Below are positions 683 to 24,147 of a DNA stretch of 64,000 bases, one piece after another (the stretch's first letter is position 1; every line of letters begins with the position of its first letter). This stretch comes from Octopus vulgaris (taxonomy: Eukaryota). The stretch is taken from NCBI GenBank assembly GCA_951406725.2, contig OX597820.1, forward strand, positions 26,784,001-26,848,000, given 5' to 3'. The notes below the pieces were generated by a model, which had not been told where the DNA came from, did no database searches, and was given only the letters and a program-made list of their open reading frames with translations. Both the position numbers and the translations under genes were made by a program.

Positions 683-718
<36 letters not shown>
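601..718. repeat. Tandem duplication of a ~60-bp compound microsatellite unit
   Basis: catacgttcatacatacatacaaaca(ta)n starts at both 601 and 661. Confidence 0.85.
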
Positions 719-722
<4 letters not shown>

Positions 723-1039
723 GGTATGTATATATGTATGTATATATATACACATATATGTAATGTATAAGTGAACAGTATCTCATGGGTGTGGATGTAT
801 TTTATTGAAATAAAAATTACTTAGTTCATTGAAGTAAAATAAAATAATATTTATCAAAAAGCGACTGAGTAAATAAATTGAAGGTTTTAATGGTACACTT
901 TAATTGAGGTTAATTGAAAATGAGAAGATTGTATCATTGAACCAGAGGTAGTGTCTGGTTGATATCAAAAGAGATGAACTTTCACATGGACAAATCAATC
1001 ATTCAGTCAACCAAATTCAATTTCAGAGACACTGTTGGG

Positions 1040-1360
1040 TGTCTCTAGGATGAAAAATGCATGGGAAAAGAAATAGTGGAGAGAACCAATGCATACTCAG
1101 CTCACTGTTCAGTAAAAATGTATATTAGTTTGACCACAAACACATTTAAGGCTAGATATATAGCACATATCCGTTTAGTATGTTTCCGAAGTAATTATCT
1201 CGTAACATCACATTCAAAATACAATCTTTGTTTTTGAGTGATGGAAGAGAAAGCAATCTTACAGTATAATGAAATATTATTACAGAAAACAAAAGCATAC
1301 GATATTTATTGTTGCCGCTGTCATCAACTTTCAGTTAAAAAAGCTCAAGATTTTATTACA
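1040..1360 (+). pseudogene. Decayed GIY-YIG endonuclease of a Penelope-like retroelement
   Basis: Frame from 1040 reads CL*DEKCMGKEIVERTNAYSAHCSVKMYISLTTNTFKARYIAHIR...VTSHSKY...ILLQKTKAYDIYCCRC. This matches the recalled PLE pattern CPLxGxC..IVY..YIGxTxxxFKxRYxxH..TxLSKY..ILxKAxxY..RC, with stops. Confidence 0.7.
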
Positions 1361-2015
1361 CAATTGTATTGTGGACAAAGATGATGAAACATTGTCACAT
1401 AACCTCCTTGTAAAGAAATTTGAACTTCACCTCTTTAAGTGCATGTTCATATAACAATGGAGTTTGAATTGCAAACTGATGAAATCCACAATATACAGCA
1501 AAACTGAGACAATAACTTGTGATACGATGCATAAAATCAAATTGGAGCATTATTTCCTCATAACAAGTTAAATACTGTAGCTCCCCACCTCTATCAGGGT
1601 AAACATGATTTCTTTTGCATGTGGCACAGAAAGAGCCATGTCTCATACAAAGAATATCTTACCATTAAACTTGGCATATGTACTGTCAATTGTGAGAATC
1701 AAATGGATTATTTACCTTAATCGTTAATGCATTCCAACAGATTAAGCATTATGCAAATTATACATTAAGAATAAAAAATTTTAACCATTAACCATCAAAT
1801 CAAGCCATTTAGCCAAAATTCAGTTCTATCAACATGTCAAACAAACGCAATTATATCTTATAAAGTAAAAATGATTTACAACAATGTCTGTTTCAATGCA
1901 TGATTTCATGAGGAATCTTGTAAAATGAATTGATATATATATATATACATATATATATATGCATATATATATATATATACTTATGTATTATATATATAGA
2001 TACGTATACATACAT

Positions 2016-2057
<42 letters not shown>

Positions 2058-2367
2058 TTATGTATTATATATATATATACGTATACATATATATATATAT
2101 ATGTATCATATACACACGCACACATATATATATAGATATATATTATATATGTGTGACTGTGTGTTGATGGATAAAGAGATAGATTGCTAGACGGACACAT
2201 AGATAGAGAGAAGTGAGATAAAATATACAATAGTTGTGAATATATATATATATATGTGTGTGTGTGTATGCCTATGTATTTATATTTCTATGTATATTTG
2301 TGCATACATACATGGGCACATATAATTTTGAAGATTTGTTTTCCTTCTTAATTTTCATACTAAAGAA

Positions 2368-2459
2368 TATTGATTTGGTAGCATTTAACATAGGGGCCAT
2401 TGTGTTCTCCATACAATGGGGATCCCCATGTTAAAGGGCTACCAAAATTTCTATCAATA
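2368..2459 (+). ncRNA. Hairpin H1, candidate pre-miRNA-like RNA
   Basis: Pairings tattgat/atcaata, ttggtagc/gctaccaa, tttaacat/atgttaaa, gggg/cccc, ccattgt/acaatgg; loop gttctccat. Confidence 0.45.
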
Positions 2460-2989
2460 ATGTTTAATATAAAACCTTGGTCTTGTATATTGTATAAGCT
2501 ATGGTGTAATATATTATATATTATTATATGGTATATAAGTATGTAATATACATGTATGTATGTATGTATGTATATATATATATAAACTGCAATACTACAA
2601 TGTATTACACAATGCATTATCTAAGATATTTTATTATTTAAAATATTAAATGAGGTGTTTTATTAAATAATGCATTATAGAAAGCATTCTTATTAAATAA
2701 AATATTACAATTTTGTTTTTGTTTCACTTTTGTTCTACCATACCAATATTTTGTAGGATGAGCTTTTGTTAAAGTAATTGTTACTGATTCATATTTCCCT
2801 TCATAGCAGTGCTCCAGCATGGTCATAGAACATCAGCTGGAACCTATAATTGAATGGAAAAATTGCTAGATGCCCTACCGAATCACTGAACCATATAGCA
2901 GGTTCAACTCTATACCAATTATACCACTTGCTACTGATAATAATGATGATAATAACAATAATGAATAAAAAAACGTCAATGTGCATAAT

Positions 2990-3072
2990 AATTGCATTAG
3001 ATAACATATACTGAGAGATCTGTTGTGTTCTCCATACAACAGGATCTGCAACAGTATTATGCTTTCACAATT
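2990..3072 (+). ncRNA. Hairpin H2, candidate pre-miRNA-like RNA with the same loop as H1
   Basis: Pairings aattg/caatt, catatactg/cagtat(t)atg, gatctgttgt/acaacag(g)atc; loop gttctccat. Confidence 0.4.
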
Positions 3073-3296
3073 GCCTTATCTATATATGAATAGTATTAAC
3101 ATATTAAGAATAAAACTTATTCACATGTAATTAAAATGTTTATGCATGGCTGATGTTATATATATATGAATATGAATACATATGCATTTATATGTATGTG
3201 TCTTTCCATACACACATTTATATACATATATATCCCCATAAATATAAGTATATACTTACATATGCATATATGTTTCTGTGTGTGTGCATGTGTACA

Positions 3297-3383
<87 letters not shown>

Positions 3384-3743
3384 ATTTACATATATATATA
3401 CATATATGTATATATAGATAGATACATACATACATACTTACATACAGGCATACATACATACATACATACATACATACATACATACATACATACATACATA
3501 CATACATACATACCTAAATATACATACACACACATGTATATGTGTATGTACATATACAGATATGCACATATATGTATGTATATATATGTGTGTGTATATA
3601 CACATGTATATATATAGGTGTGTATGTGCGTATATGTATTATATATATATATCTTTCTACATTTAAACATTGAAGTAGCCTTAGCTGGAAATATCATACA
3701 ATACTGCAATAATGATACAAATAAAAATAAACACAATAAATAT

Positions 3744-3768
3744 AATAATGATAATAATAATAATAATG

Positions 3769-3815
<47 letters not shown>

Positions 3816-3822
3816 TTTAATA

Positions 3823-3863
<41 letters not shown>

Positions 3864-3870
3864 TTTAATA

Positions 3871-3920
<50 letters not shown>
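3744..3920. repeat. (AAT)n microsatellite with a duplicated interruption
   Basis: Long (aat)n; ttttaataatagt occurs twice. Confidence 0.95.
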
Positions 3921-3989
3921 TCAGTTAACTGTTGGAAAATTCTTAGTTTGCTTTTTTTTTATTGTTGTATGTTTTGTGTTTTGTTTAAG

Positions 3990-4095
3990 TTCCAATCTAG
4001 TTGACAATATATGTGATTCAGATTGCGGTTGTGTTCTCCGAAACAACAGGAGTACACCAAAGTTATTATATATTGTCAAACATAGATTTCAGGAA
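3990..4095 (+). ncRNA. Hairpin H3, candidate pre-miRNA-like RNA with a variant of the H1/H2 loop
   Basis: Pairings ttcc/ggaa, aatcta/tagatt, ttgacaatatat/atatattgtcaa, gtgatt/agttat (G.U pairs), gttgt/acaac; loop gttctccgaa. Confidence 0.4.
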
Positions 4096-4261: not shown

Positions 4262-5440
4262 AGAGAGAAGATGGTAAAAAGACAACAAAATGGAAGCAGA
4301 TAAAGGGGAAATAGAAGAAATGAAGGAAGGAAAATGCTAGAATTTTATAAAAGAGAAAATGCTGTATGAAAATGGTATATTTTGGAGTAGGTGCATGACT
4401 TGGTGATTAAAATGCTGAGGAAATCACTTTAAATTCATAGGTTTGGTTCCTGGACTGGTGCATTATGTCCTTGGGCAAGGTTTTTCATTTCACAAAGTTC
4501 CATTCCGAGTTGTTGGAATTAAGTATTGATGAAATGAATTATATTATATAAGAGAGCAGACAAAACAAGATGGAAGAAGTAAAAAGGAAAAAGGAAAAAG
4601 AAAGAAAAATGAAAGAGAGCAAAGAAATTGTTAGAATTTAATGAAAGCCAAGATATTTTATATATAATGTGGTAATTTTCAGGTATGGCCTTGTGGATAG
4701 GCTTTTGAGCAAAGCATGTAAACTGTAAGTTCATGGACTTGATTCTCGAACTGGGTGATGCATTATATCTTTGGGCAAGAATTTTTATTTCAAGAGGTTT
4801 TTGTCCAGGTAGACATGAATTAGCACTGATGGAATGACTAACTAACTACGCCCTTTTCAAGCCTAGCCAGGCTCATGGGCCCGGTTTCCCGGTTTCTGTG
4901 GCATATATATTCCCCCCAGCTGGACGGGATGTCAGTCCATCGCAGCATTACTCAAGAAAGAGGAAGAGAGAGTGAGAGAAAGTTGTGGCGAAAGAGTACA
5001 ACAGGGGTCGCCACCACACCCTGCCAGAGCCTCGTGGAGCTTTTTAGGTGTTTTCGCTCAATAAACACACACAACACCCAGTCTGGGAATCGAAACTGCG
5101 ATCCTCCAACCGCGAGTCTGCTGCCCTAACCACTGGGCCATTGCGCCTCCACTGGAGTGACATATTACAAGAAACGACATTCACAAGATGAAAGAAACTA
5201 AAACTAAAAAAAGCAAGAAAGATGAAATGAAAGAAAGGAAAGAAATTTCCAGAATTTAATAACAGAGAGAATATTGTATGAATAATATATGGTGACTTTG
5301 GGTGTAAATGTGTGGCTTAGTGGTTAGAATGTTCATAGGGTGGATTCTTTGACTGGGTAGTGCATTATGTCCTTGAGCAATATAATTTATTTCATGAAGT
5401 TCCAGATCCCACATCTGAAACTGAATACTACTGACAGCTG
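4262..5440 (+). repeat. Old tandem triplication of a ~280-bp unit (purine-rich spacer plus decayed CORE-type SINE)
   Basis: Three units (~4262, ~4550, ~5180) share ...agaattt(a/t)at...tgcattat(g/a)tc(c/t)ttg(g/a)gcaa...atttca. Confidence 0.7.
4839..5152 (-). mobile_element. Full-length tRNA-derived SINE with TSD
   Basis: Minus strand begins gtggaggcgcaatggcccagtggttaggg (A box), has gtttcgattcc (B box) and an (agtt)n tail; flanks tggaatgac/tggagtgac (9 bp, 1 mismatch). Related copy at ~59900-60153. Confidence 0.9.
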
Positions 5441-8614: not shown

Positions 8615-9135
8615 TATATACAGATATTTTAGAATCTTATGAGAGAAGTTTGCTAGATGTTCAAAAATTTCCATATCAGAAACCGTTTTCTCCATGTGCT
8701 AAAGCTCTCTGCTCACAACAAGACTTACGAACAGAAGCATAATTGGTTGGAAGAAGGGGACAGCAAACCAGAGAACAAGATGACTTGTCCCACAGCTAAT
8801 TAATCAAAGACCTTGGAATGAGATCCCTGATTATTTGAAGGAGTTACTGAAGTTGCTTTGAGTGTTTCATGCATTGCATGGCAACAGGGGGAAAGAATTT
8901 CATCTTTATTTTTGCCAAATAACATAGTCTTGATTTGCAATGAAGGCTAAGGCTACTTGAAATTTTGAAATTGATGGCTAAAGCAATTTTTACATAGTAG
9001 CTATTCTTTTTAGAACATAATAGAAACAAAAATAATATACATACATATATGAATGTATATATATCTACATATATAGCTGTCCAAGTCAGGAAAAACAGGC
9101 ACTCATATATAAGGTAATAAAGTATATATATATAT

Positions 9136-9188
<53 letters not shown>

Positions 9189-10131
9189 ATCTATATGTAC
9201 ATACATGATCAAATAACAAGATATAAATAGAGGATTGAATTATTTGGGATTTAATTCTTAGGATCAATGGAGTTTAAAAATCGCTTTAGTTTTCTTTGTC
9301 TTATTATGAACAAACTCCCATACCAAGTTTAGCTTATGAGCCTTATGATTAAAAGAGCAACAACTGTGACATGATCATCATCATTATCATCATCATTATG
9401 ATTATCATGATGATGATCATCATCAGCAACAACAAGTTCATTTGCATTTAATTTCCAAGCAATAATTCTTTCCTGTCTGAAACCTTTTTGAGTGAGGGAT
9501 CATAGGATAGGAAAGAGTTGTAAAATTCTAAGCCTTTCATATACAATTTGGCATTATTTATTTATTTATTTATATATTTATTTATTTATTTATTTATTTA
9601 TTTATTAGTTTTACAAAGCAAACTATTTCTCCTTGAAGAGCATATTTATATGTGAACCCAATGTTTGGGGTTAGCAAGAGGAGGTTTATAAAGTTTATAT
9701 TATTTGCATAACAACAGCAATGCAAGCTTTTAAAAAAAAAGTCAAACATTTTTAAAAGACAAACAAGTTCTCCATAAAGAACGGTTTAGACTCCTAACCC
9801 TTTATTGTTAATATAAATTCATTTTTAAATCCATGTATATATATATTTTTTAAAACCACCAAAATATAAACAATAAATATCTTTGAATACATATATTTGT
9901 GCAATTACATTGTATTATTTATGTGATAAAGGAAAACAGTAAATTATTTACTATTCACCTGTAGTTGATATTATTTTGTGTGTTTTTTGTATTTATTTAC
10001 AATAAATTTTGCCAGCAACAAAACAGGCTTTACTTTCTTTCTTTTAAAAGTAATTTATACATTTGCATAATAGCCGTAAATATATCTTCAAATATATCTT
10101 TTATTAATATATACATACATGAATATATACA

Positions 10132-23299: not shown

Positions 23300-23333
23300 A
23301 ACAATAGCAATAATAATAATAATGATGATGATG

Positions 23334-23376
<43 letters not shown>

Positions 23377-23377
<1 letters not shown>

Positions 23378-24147
23378 CTATATATATAAAAGTGAGATAC
23401 TGTATGTTTGTTTGTCCAGCTATTATGCTTTTTCTATGTATAAAATCGAAATTCTGTCTCCTTCTTTATCCAGCAAAATGAAAGTATCTGGTTCAGGGGA
23501 AGCTATTATGCTATTGGCTAATTTGTCCCAACAAGAATTATGCAATAATACAGCACTAATTGTGCACAAACTTATGAGGAACTGCATTGAGGCAAATATT
23601 TTCACTGGTTGTGGTAAAGGTGACACTGTCTTCATTCCTCACATACCGGTTATACCATCTAAAGTCCCATTCCAATTTAAGCTGTTACAGTTTCCTATCC
23701 CACTTTCTTTTGTCATGAGCATTAATAAAACTCAGGGCCAAACACTAAAAGTTGCTGGATTGCATCTTTTTGCCTATGCACTCCAAATTAAAACAAATGA
23801 ACATTGTTTATAAAGAAGTATTCACTATTAATGCAACATGAATACTTCAATGACTTAATTTCAAGAATGAGTAAATTACCTATTTGAATGAAGTGTATTA
23901 TATACTTGCCATTACTCTATTCATAGATATAATAACACCTGCAACTCACTATTATTCTCATATAGTAAACAAACACAAGTTCATGTATAAAATTGATCTT
24001 TTTTTCCACTTCAATTATTACATATTTTTCTCTTATAAAATTACATGCATACAGGATGAGTAAATTATATATATAATAATACTTTAAATATGTCTCCCAA
24101 GAAACAATAAAAGTAATCACCTGATCAATGATGTGTATTACTACTAG
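23377..24147 (+). mobile_element. Internally deleted Helitron
   Basis: 5' end A|TCtatatatataaaa, 3' end CTAG|T (24144-47) preceded by a decayed subterminal hairpin (cacctgatcaatgatgtg), no TSD, PIF1 fragment inside. Confidence 0.85.
23454..23770 (+). pseudogene. Helitron RepHel PIF1 helicase C-terminal fragment
   Basis: IMLLANLS..LCNNTALIV..IFTGCGKGDTVFIPHIPVIPS..PFQFKLLQFPIPLSFVMSINKTQGQTLKVAG matches PIF1 motifs (MLLRNL, LCNGTRL, IPRI, QFP, AMTINKSQGQTL), with key residues substituted. Confidence 0.93.

What the first reader, a model, noticed from the sequence alone, without database searches (positions are those of the whole stretch)
2368..4095. Three hairpins with a shared apical loop but diverged arms: candidate miRNA-like or structured RNA cluster
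Seen: H1 (2368-2459), H2 (2990-3072) and H3 (3990-4095) all carry TTGTGTTCTCC-(AT/GAA)-ACAA at the apex, followed shortly by GGA. Scanning by eye, I found this motif nowhere else in the window. The arms differ but each still pairs; the apical stem is ccattgt/acaatgg in H1 and ctgttgt/acaacag in H2, which looks compensatory. G.U pairs favour the + strand. In H1 and H2 a U-starting 22-mer (UAGCAUUUAACAUAGGGGCCAU 2379-2400; UAACAUAUACUGAGAGAUCUGU 3002-3023) lies directly before UGUG. Established: apical UGUG is the DGCR8/Microprocessor motif, and coleoid cephalopods have many lineage-specific miRNAs. Inference: a polycistronic cluster with diversified guides and a shared loop-binding signal. Caveats: the 3' arms have large bulges, H1 has no clear CNNC, and I match these to no known miRNA.
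Basis: partly seen in the sequence, partly recalled or inferred. Interest (0 to 1): 0.75.

Follow-up and report, generated by a model that had tools for sequence, protein, structure and literature searches.

The report
Three octopus hairpins sharing one tip
Three predicted hairpins lie within 1.7 kb of non-coding octopus DNA, each found once in the genome, with a shared short central sequence and stems that differ yet still pair; they are likely old duplicates kept as protein-docking RNA structures, and whether they yield microRNAs is untested.

Summary
TTGTGTTCTCC-N2/3-ACAA-YR-GGA occurs three times in 1.65 kb. Each copy lies in a predicted hairpin (z -5.8, -3.3, -4.3). Each hairpin is single-copy in the 2.8-Gb genome, while a neighbouring MITE-like hairpin gives 772 candidates in the same search. 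One correction: in H3 the motif is not the predicted apical loop (P = 0.01); it pairs with the 3' arm. H1 and H2 are 17/17 identical in the core but 29/64 in the arms, and 6 of 15 aligned pairs change on both sides. This is the pattern of structural hairpins and the reverse of typical miRNA genes. The proposed 22-mers would need 26-27-nt or longer partner arms, and no CNNC or correctly placed basal UG is present. A lower, canonical-looking duplex exists in H1 and H3, so miRNA is not excluded. There is no Rfam match, no further copy was established, and no cellular gene was detected between GILT (about 40 kb upstream) and an EF-hand gene (about 83 kb downstream). Transcription rests on one contig from a run only guessed to be RNA. 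Best reading: a locally triplicated RNA structure under selection that docks a protein (0.4). Rivals: regulated miRNA cluster (0.3), transposon relics (0.2).

The parts
2361..2466 (+). H1: predicted long bulged hairpin (41 pairs, -40.6 kcal/mol; core 2368-2459), 3'-side bulges of 4 and 7 nt
   Evidence: single copy
2400..2422 (+). H1 conserved core TTGTGTTCTCC-AT-ACAA then TGG-GGA; UCUCC 2406-2410 predicted unpaired (P 1.0)
2998..3082 (+). H2: predicted bulged hairpin (29 pairs, -22.8 kcal/mol; well-defined part 3005-3061); aligns without gaps to H1 over 76 nt
   Evidence: single copy
3023..3044 (+). H2 conserved core, 17/17 identical to H1, then CA-GGA; UCUCC predicted unpaired (P 1.0)
3991..4094 (+). 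H3: predicted hairpin with long basal stem (39 pairs, -28.8 kcal/mol) and a large internal loop
   Evidence: single copy
4029..4057 (+). H3 core TTGTGTTCTCC-GAA-ACAA-CA-GGA; predicted to prefer the alternative helix 4031-4039 with 4049-4057 over the shared loop
2375..2447 (+). Possible lower-register pre-miRNA in H1 (22/22-nt arms, 18 bp, 29-nt structured loop, 11-bp lower stem); hypothetical
4002..4080 (+). Possible lower-register pre-miRNA in H3 (20-24/21-nt arms, 17-18 bp, 34-38-nt loop, 13-bp lower stem); hypothetical
830..2928 (.). Unspliced contigs from two runs guessed to be RNA: 846-1921 and 2303-2542 (X6, spans H1); 830-1653 and 2614-2928 (X12). Strand, ends and RNA origin not shown

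Best explanation
The three hairpins are likely old local duplicates that selection keeps as RNA structures, each predicted to use a bulged stem of about 30-40 base pairs to present a conserved tip sequence that a protein would bind in an unannotated non-coding transcript. Shown: the shared core, the folding potential, single-copy status, weak arm homology and paired changes in the stems. Inferred: transcription of the + strand through all three, purifying selection on the core, and a protein partner. The conserved GGA just 3' of the tip can pair with UCC in the loop in all three; H3 is predicted to prefer that pairing, which would hide the site (inferred, untested).
For: Core 17/17 versus arms 29/64 identical between H1 and H2 (Fisher p 1.5e-5, region chosen after the fact). 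Arm similarity above genomic background for H1-H2 (p 0.013 and 0.019-0.024) and the H2-H3 3' arm (p 0.006). On a sequence-only alignment 6 of 15 pairs change on both sides (shuffles 2.3; 2 of 500 as high) and 82% of cells pair versus 30-49% when slid. Only 5 genome-wide matches of the motif with GGA, 3 of them here, control 16. Each hairpin single-copy. Compensated stems mark structural hairpins as opposed to miRNAs (PMC4105746 passages). A contig from a run guessed to be RNA spans H1 uncut.
Against: Only three sequences; the structure counted was derived from them; 2 of 6 arm comparisons (both H1-H3) and the H2-H3 5' arm are not significant. H3 is predicted to bury the motif. No ortholog from a distant species was available. 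Paired changes in inverted repeats can also arise by template-switch repair without selection (recalled). Canonical duplex registers exist in H1 and H3.
Confidence: 0.4

Rival explanations
1. A polycistronic miRNA cluster whose paralogues diversified their arms while keeping a conserved, structured loop that controls processing or is itself loaded as a loop-derived small RNA.
For: Stems of 29-41 predicted pairs; UGUG 22 nt after a U in all three; a lower, homologous + register gives 20-24-nt arms with 17-20 bp, an 11-13-bp lower stem and precursors of 73-79 nt in H1 and H3, under the 80-nt mollusc limit. Exceptions to loop-first divergence are known: conserved regulatory loops, functional loops, mir-451, Drosophila testis clusters; loop-miRs (PMC3664828 abstract).
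Against: In the lower register UGUG falls at positions 26-30; no UG at -14/-13 and no CNNC. H2 has no matching lower register on +. Any long hairpin offers such registers (69 in H1 +, 83 in H1 -). No two novel octopus families reported on one scaffold.
Confidence: 0.3
2. Neutral relics: a motif from a transposon end was duplicated locally, and each copy became a fold-back by inverted duplication and template-switch repair.
For: An abundant element with about 135-bp terminal inverted repeats (family D, 1648 candidates) carries TTGTGTTCT..ACA-YR-GGA in the same order; the 3' flanks of H1-H3 resemble it weakly (p 0.084, 0.13, 0.032 against genomic sequence; 0.006, 0.052, 0.068 against shuffles). 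The region is repeat-rich (38% masked).
Against: 5' flanks show no likeness to family D (p 0.47-0.63) and a family-D profile scores H1 and H2 at E 10 and 42 and does not list H3. A second, unrelated 600-bp repeat (family A) holds the exact 11-mer with unrelated flanks and no hairpin, so partial matches arise easily here. No shared flanks beyond microsatellites. Neutral decay does not explain 17/17 core identity beside 45% arm identity.
Confidence: 0.2
3. A DNA-level element: three binding sites for a transcription factor or recombinase at the tips of cruciform-forming inverted repeats.
For: The core is itself an interrupted palindrome (TTGT-N9/10-ACAA); folding energies are similar on both strands in H1 and H2.
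Against: The arms are full of asymmetric bulges; the homologous + fold has 6 G.U pairs and no A.C 1x1 mismatch (a hand count of H2's alternative base gives one A.C), which leans to RNA.
Confidence: 0.07

Closest known systems
miRNA loci with constrained loops or fast-evolving arms: Drosophila testis-restricted clustered miRNAs, conserved-terminal-loop miRNAs, mir-451 (PMC4105746, passages read); loop-miRs (PMC3664828, abstract)
   Same: Clustered paralogous hairpins of precursor size in which the duplex diverges as fast as or faster than the loop.
   Different: Those loci have read evidence of processing; here none could be examined. The stems here show changes on both sides, a constant 3'-side excess of about 4 nt, and no CNNC or basal UG at the expected places.
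Repeated stem-loop modules in long non-coding RNAs, e.g. the hairpin array noted in octopus Zmast (earlier finding e1-8669343, unchecked; Zmast preprint 10.1101/2024.12.09.627507, abstract only)
   Same: Several related bulged hairpins in non-coding octopus sequence, candidate protein-docking units.
   Different: Three widely spaced, strongly diverged units rather than 25-30; another contig; no host transcript defined; no sequence comparison made.
Protein-binding stem-loops present in several copies per RNA, such as iron-responsive elements (recalled, not from a call)
   Same: Conserved loop on a stem whose sequence may vary.
   Different: Different loop sequence, much longer stems, no mRNA host found; no Rfam family matches.
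Non-autonomous terminal-inverted-repeat element 'family D' of this genome
   Same: Block order TTGTGTTCT..ACA-YR-GGA and a short bulged hairpin.
   Different: Over a thousand candidates, unrelated 5' flank, profile match not significant; common descent not established.

Membership tests
Canonical miRNA gene (MirGeneDB criteria) | Reads from both arms with homogeneous 5' ends and 2-nt 3' overhangs | not testable with these tools
   All runs offered were contigs, none labelled small RNA
Canonical miRNA gene (MirGeneDB criteria) | Both arms about 22 nt (3p at most 26), at least 16 bp, precursor under 80 nt in molluscs | tested here: inconclusive
Canonical miRNA gene (MirGeneDB criteria) | Basal UG and CNNC motifs (common, not obligatory; positions recalled) | tested here: not met
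   0 of 3 for each motif in both registers
Canonical miRNA gene (MirGeneDB criteria) | Apical UGUG next to the 5p arm | tested here: inconclusive
Canonical miRNA gene (MirGeneDB criteria) | Saddle-shaped divergence: arms conserved, loop variable | tested here: not met
   Among paralogues the reverse: core 17/17, arms 29/64; rule, which concerns orthologs
Known Rfam families | Covariance-model score at the gathering threshold | tested here: not met
   0 matches in the window; at E up to 10, 1 of 106 matches touches a hairpin (bacterial AgvB, E 4.7, 17 bits against 56)
MITE or decayed dispersed repeat | Many dispersed copies | tested here: not met
   H1 and H3 1 match each; H2 1 match, the other 11 hits cover the microsatellite before it, 2 reaching its first bases; control hairpin 772 candidates. 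The tool warns that counts are lower bounds
H/ACA snoRNA | Hairpin with a guide pocket and an H or ACA box 14-16 nt below it (recalled) | tested here: not met
   H1 has no pocket and no ACA in the 30 nt after the 3' arm; ACA follows H2 and H3, but H2's internal loop lies about 19 nt above it by hand count; no second hairpin
Structural RNA element under selection | Covarying base pairs among homologues | tested here: inconclusive
   6 of 15 pairs change on both sides, above shuffles and slid controls, but n = 3 and the structure came from these sequences
Structural RNA element under selection | Transcribed on one strand and conserved in distant species | tested here: inconclusive
   One contig over H1 from a run guessed to be RNA; a second organism label is identical over 2368-2459 but 99% identical around it too

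The most novel reading that the evidence does not exclude
An octopus miRNA cluster that evolves backwards: three paralogous precursors keep one structured loop as a shared processing switch (or as the loaded guide itself) while their arms were rewritten in matched pairs into three different guides, with H3 able to fold the loop motif away.
Probability: 0.2. Interest if true: 0.8.

Novelty: new variant of a known kind. Interest (0 to 1): 0.5.

Why it matters
Hairpin families with an invariant loop and compensated stems have usually pointed to a new RNA-protein interaction or an unusual small-RNA pathway. Cephalopod structured RNAs other than miRNAs and editing substrates seem little studied (one search, listed no octopus paper among its top 15). 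The three units give a compact, testable system: existing octopus small-RNA libraries decide miRNA or not in one mapping, and the 17-nt core is a ready bait for finding the binding protein. If the hairpins are transposon relics, the interest is low.

Tried and rejected
Rfam at two thresholds: nothing. tRNA scan: 0. Further copies: a covariance model of the three found no fourth in 214 kb (next best 19.8 bits against 66-85). Among 48 motif-bearing loci the best was L071 at 25.3 bits, and among 24 more the best was 15 bits. Of 37 other genomic loci with the motif or near variants, 4 had a centred hairpin at p < 0.05 (about 2 expected); L089 proved to be a family-D repeat, L013 belongs by eye to another repeat, L071 is single-copy and stays unresolved. 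Of the 36 matches, 20 were fetched and 16 were not examined. Metagenome (8 stretches) and viral (2) pattern hits form no comparable hairpin. The genome could not be scanned with the model itself, so remote paralogues with a changed core could be missed. Hammerhead, hairpin and HDV-like ribozymes, SECIS, K-turn and an H-type pseudoknot were considered from recalled consensus features and dropped by inspection; none appeared. A docking site: the only other TGTTCTCC in 214 kb lies 44 nt before the window on the - strand, which chance allows. Literature: six strings from the hairpins found 0 papers; GUUCUCC with stem-loop and apical loop 0; no hits in the supplements of PMC9699675, PMC11701709 or PMC8125070 as held. 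The parts of those supplements that I saw list no octopus mature sequences, the large data archive of PMC9699675 gave almost no text, and MirGeneDB itself could not be queried, so prior annotation is not excluded. Lack of cover over H2 proves nothing.

Full report
Setting. The window is C7:26784001-26848000 of a 2.8-Gb genome in 227 contigs; earlier notes on this genome call it octopus, and I take that label as unverified. I fetched 100 kb upstream and 50 kb downstream. A GILT gene on + has its apparent last coding exon about 38 kb before the window (Pfam GILT 3.8e-11; further exons by motif). An EF-hand gene of neuronal-calcium-sensor type (type recalled) on - ends at about window coordinate 87,400. 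Of 119 filtered open frames of at least 48 residues between them, 4 hit Pfam: two reverse-transcriptase pieces, one Pif1 piece and one weak match below cut-off. Short exons or a very long intron of a distant gene are not excluded.

Observation. The 11-mer occurs at 2400, 3023 and 4029 only. All three regions fold far better than shuffles (z -5.79, -3.29, -4.25), also when the core is fixed and only the flanks are shuffled (0, 2 and 0 of 300). Genome-wide the pattern with ACAA has 18 matches against 9 for the reversed control; two more copies within 1.7 kb by chance would have a probability near 1e-10. Adding GGA leaves 5 matches, 3 of them here, against 16 for the control. The correction concerns H3: the shared apical stem has probability 0.01, the motif pairs with 4049-4057 instead, and forcing the shared loop costs 3.6 kcal/mol. 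Strand is only weakly indicated: + is better by 3.8 and 4.7 kcal/mol in H1 and H3 and worse by 3.4 in H2 in one set of windows; in another H1 and H2 differ by under 1 kcal/mol. The homologous + fold has 6 G.U pairs.

Not a dispersed repeat. DNA searches return only the locus itself for H1 and H3; for H2 the 11 other hits cover the microsatellite before it. A hairpin 3.4 kb before the window, found in a scan of 70 kb, gives 772 candidates in the same search, so the search does see MITE-like families. A covariance model of the three hairpins finds no fourth in 214 kb. Mismatch searches gave other motif-bearing loci; the best model score among 48 plus 24 loci was 25.3 bits against 66-85 for the training copies, and 4 of 37 had a centred hairpin at p < 0.05. 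One of these, L071, is single-copy with an 8-bp apical stem and a 3' bulge; it may be a fourth member or chance.

They are likely paralogues with an unusual divergence pattern. H1 and H2 align without gaps over 76 nt. Arm similarity exceeds genomic background for H1-H2 (p 0.013; 0.019-0.024) and for the H2-H3 3' arm (p 0.006), not for H1-H3 or the H2-H3 5' arm (p 0.06); flanks share only microsatellites. The core is 17/17 identical between H1 and H2 while the arms are 29/64. On the sequence-only alignment, 6 of 15 named pairs change on both sides and 82% of cells pair, against 2.3 pairs in shuffles and 30-49% in slid controls. With three sequences and a structure derived from them this is suggestive only. 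In the shared register the 3' strand is about 4 nt longer than the 5' strand in H1 and H3 and, by hand count, in H2.

miRNA test. PMC4105746 (passages) states that loop-first divergence characterises miRNAs and separates them from structural hairpins, whose stems gather compensatory changes; exceptions signalled regulated loops, functional loops or mir-451. No basal UG or CNNC sits at the recalled positions. H2 lacks this register on +, and long hairpins offer many registers on either strand. PMC9699675 (passages and section 6) reports 94 novel genes in 90 families, no two novel families on one scaffold, and calls the set an underestimate. Its supplements as held contained none of my search strings (one table file read in part). 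PMC12479628 (passages) finds no dedicated endo-siRNA pathway in molluscs, which weighs against hairpin-siRNA readings.

Expression and conservation. Twenty of 24 listed runs hold part of the stretch. Four were laid on 700-3200. Unspliced contigs from two runs guessed to be RNA cover 830-1921, 2303-2542 and 2614-2928; one spans H1 with no difference; no joints were found. Contigs show neither strand nor ends, and DNA carry-over is possible. A second organism label is identical over H1, with 2 differences in 240 nt, which is too close to inform.

Transposon lead. One near-match led to an abundant element with about 135-bp terminal inverted repeats (1648 candidates) whose ends carry the blocks TTGTGTTCT, ACA and YRGGA in the same order. 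The 3' flanks of H1-H3 resemble it weakly (p 0.03-0.13 against genomic sequence), the 5' flanks not at all, and a profile gives E of 10 or more. An unrelated 600-bp repeat holds the exact 11-mer in unrelated flanks (14 of 19 loci examined by flank pattern). Descent from either is not established; I keep it as a rival.

Mechanism. Most likely a hairpin unit was duplicated twice long ago; spacers decayed into microsatellite; the stems drifted while pairing was kept; and the tip stayed fixed because a protein reads it. The shared sequence, folding potential, single-copy status and paired changes are shown. Selection, + strand transcription through all three, and the protein are inferred. Whether the bound hairpins are cut by Microprocessor is the open fork: structural module 0.4, regulated miRNA cluster 0.3, relic 0.2, DNA element 0.07.

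Verdict. A real, apparently undescribed three-member hairpin family; no match in Rfam, in the paper searches named above, or in earlier findings of this scan by place, sequence or words. MirGeneDB could not be checked. Interest 0.5; new variant of a known kind.

Noticed in passing
L028:6507-6602 (about 3.4 kb before the window): A 96-nt MITE-like hairpin with 19-bp arms and two TTAGGG units in its loop; 772 candidates genome-wide.
   Followed up: partly
L071:1475-1545 (G000:C1:19064052): Single-copy predicted hairpin with a one-mismatch version of the core at its tip, 8-bp apical stem and 6-nt 3' bulge; possible fourth member or chance.
   Followed up: partly
L093-L100, L086, L089: Abundant element of about 480 bp with about 135-bp terminal inverted repeats (family D); a TTAA-like flank at one end of L095 suggests a Kolobok-type element (recalled, untested). 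Its subterminal motif resembles the hairpin core.
   Followed up: partly
L104-L121, L001, L007, L009, L011, L014, L017, L018: Young repeat of about 600 bp (about 90% identity between copies, family A) that contains the exact 11-mer without a hairpin.
   Followed up: partly
window 4294-4502 and 5211-5404 (and by eye about 4620-4830): A second, old local duplication just downstream of H3, 66% identical over 218 columns.
   Followed up: no
window 23301-23813; L025:8388-8627; L028 about 8850-9220: Several Pif1-helicase fragments, probably Helitron remnants (the L028 piece by eye).
   Followed up: no
L019-L020, window coordinates about -91,900 to -89,300: Interrupted long frames with reverse-transcriptase-like and GIY-YIG-like stretches by eye, probably a Penelope-type element.
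   Followed up: no
L070:1440-1560 (G000:C18:78269641, - strand): Single-copy site with a two-mismatch core plus TGGG whose 3' flank is the best match to family D among the loci tested; centred hairpin not significant (p 0.19).
   Followed up: partly
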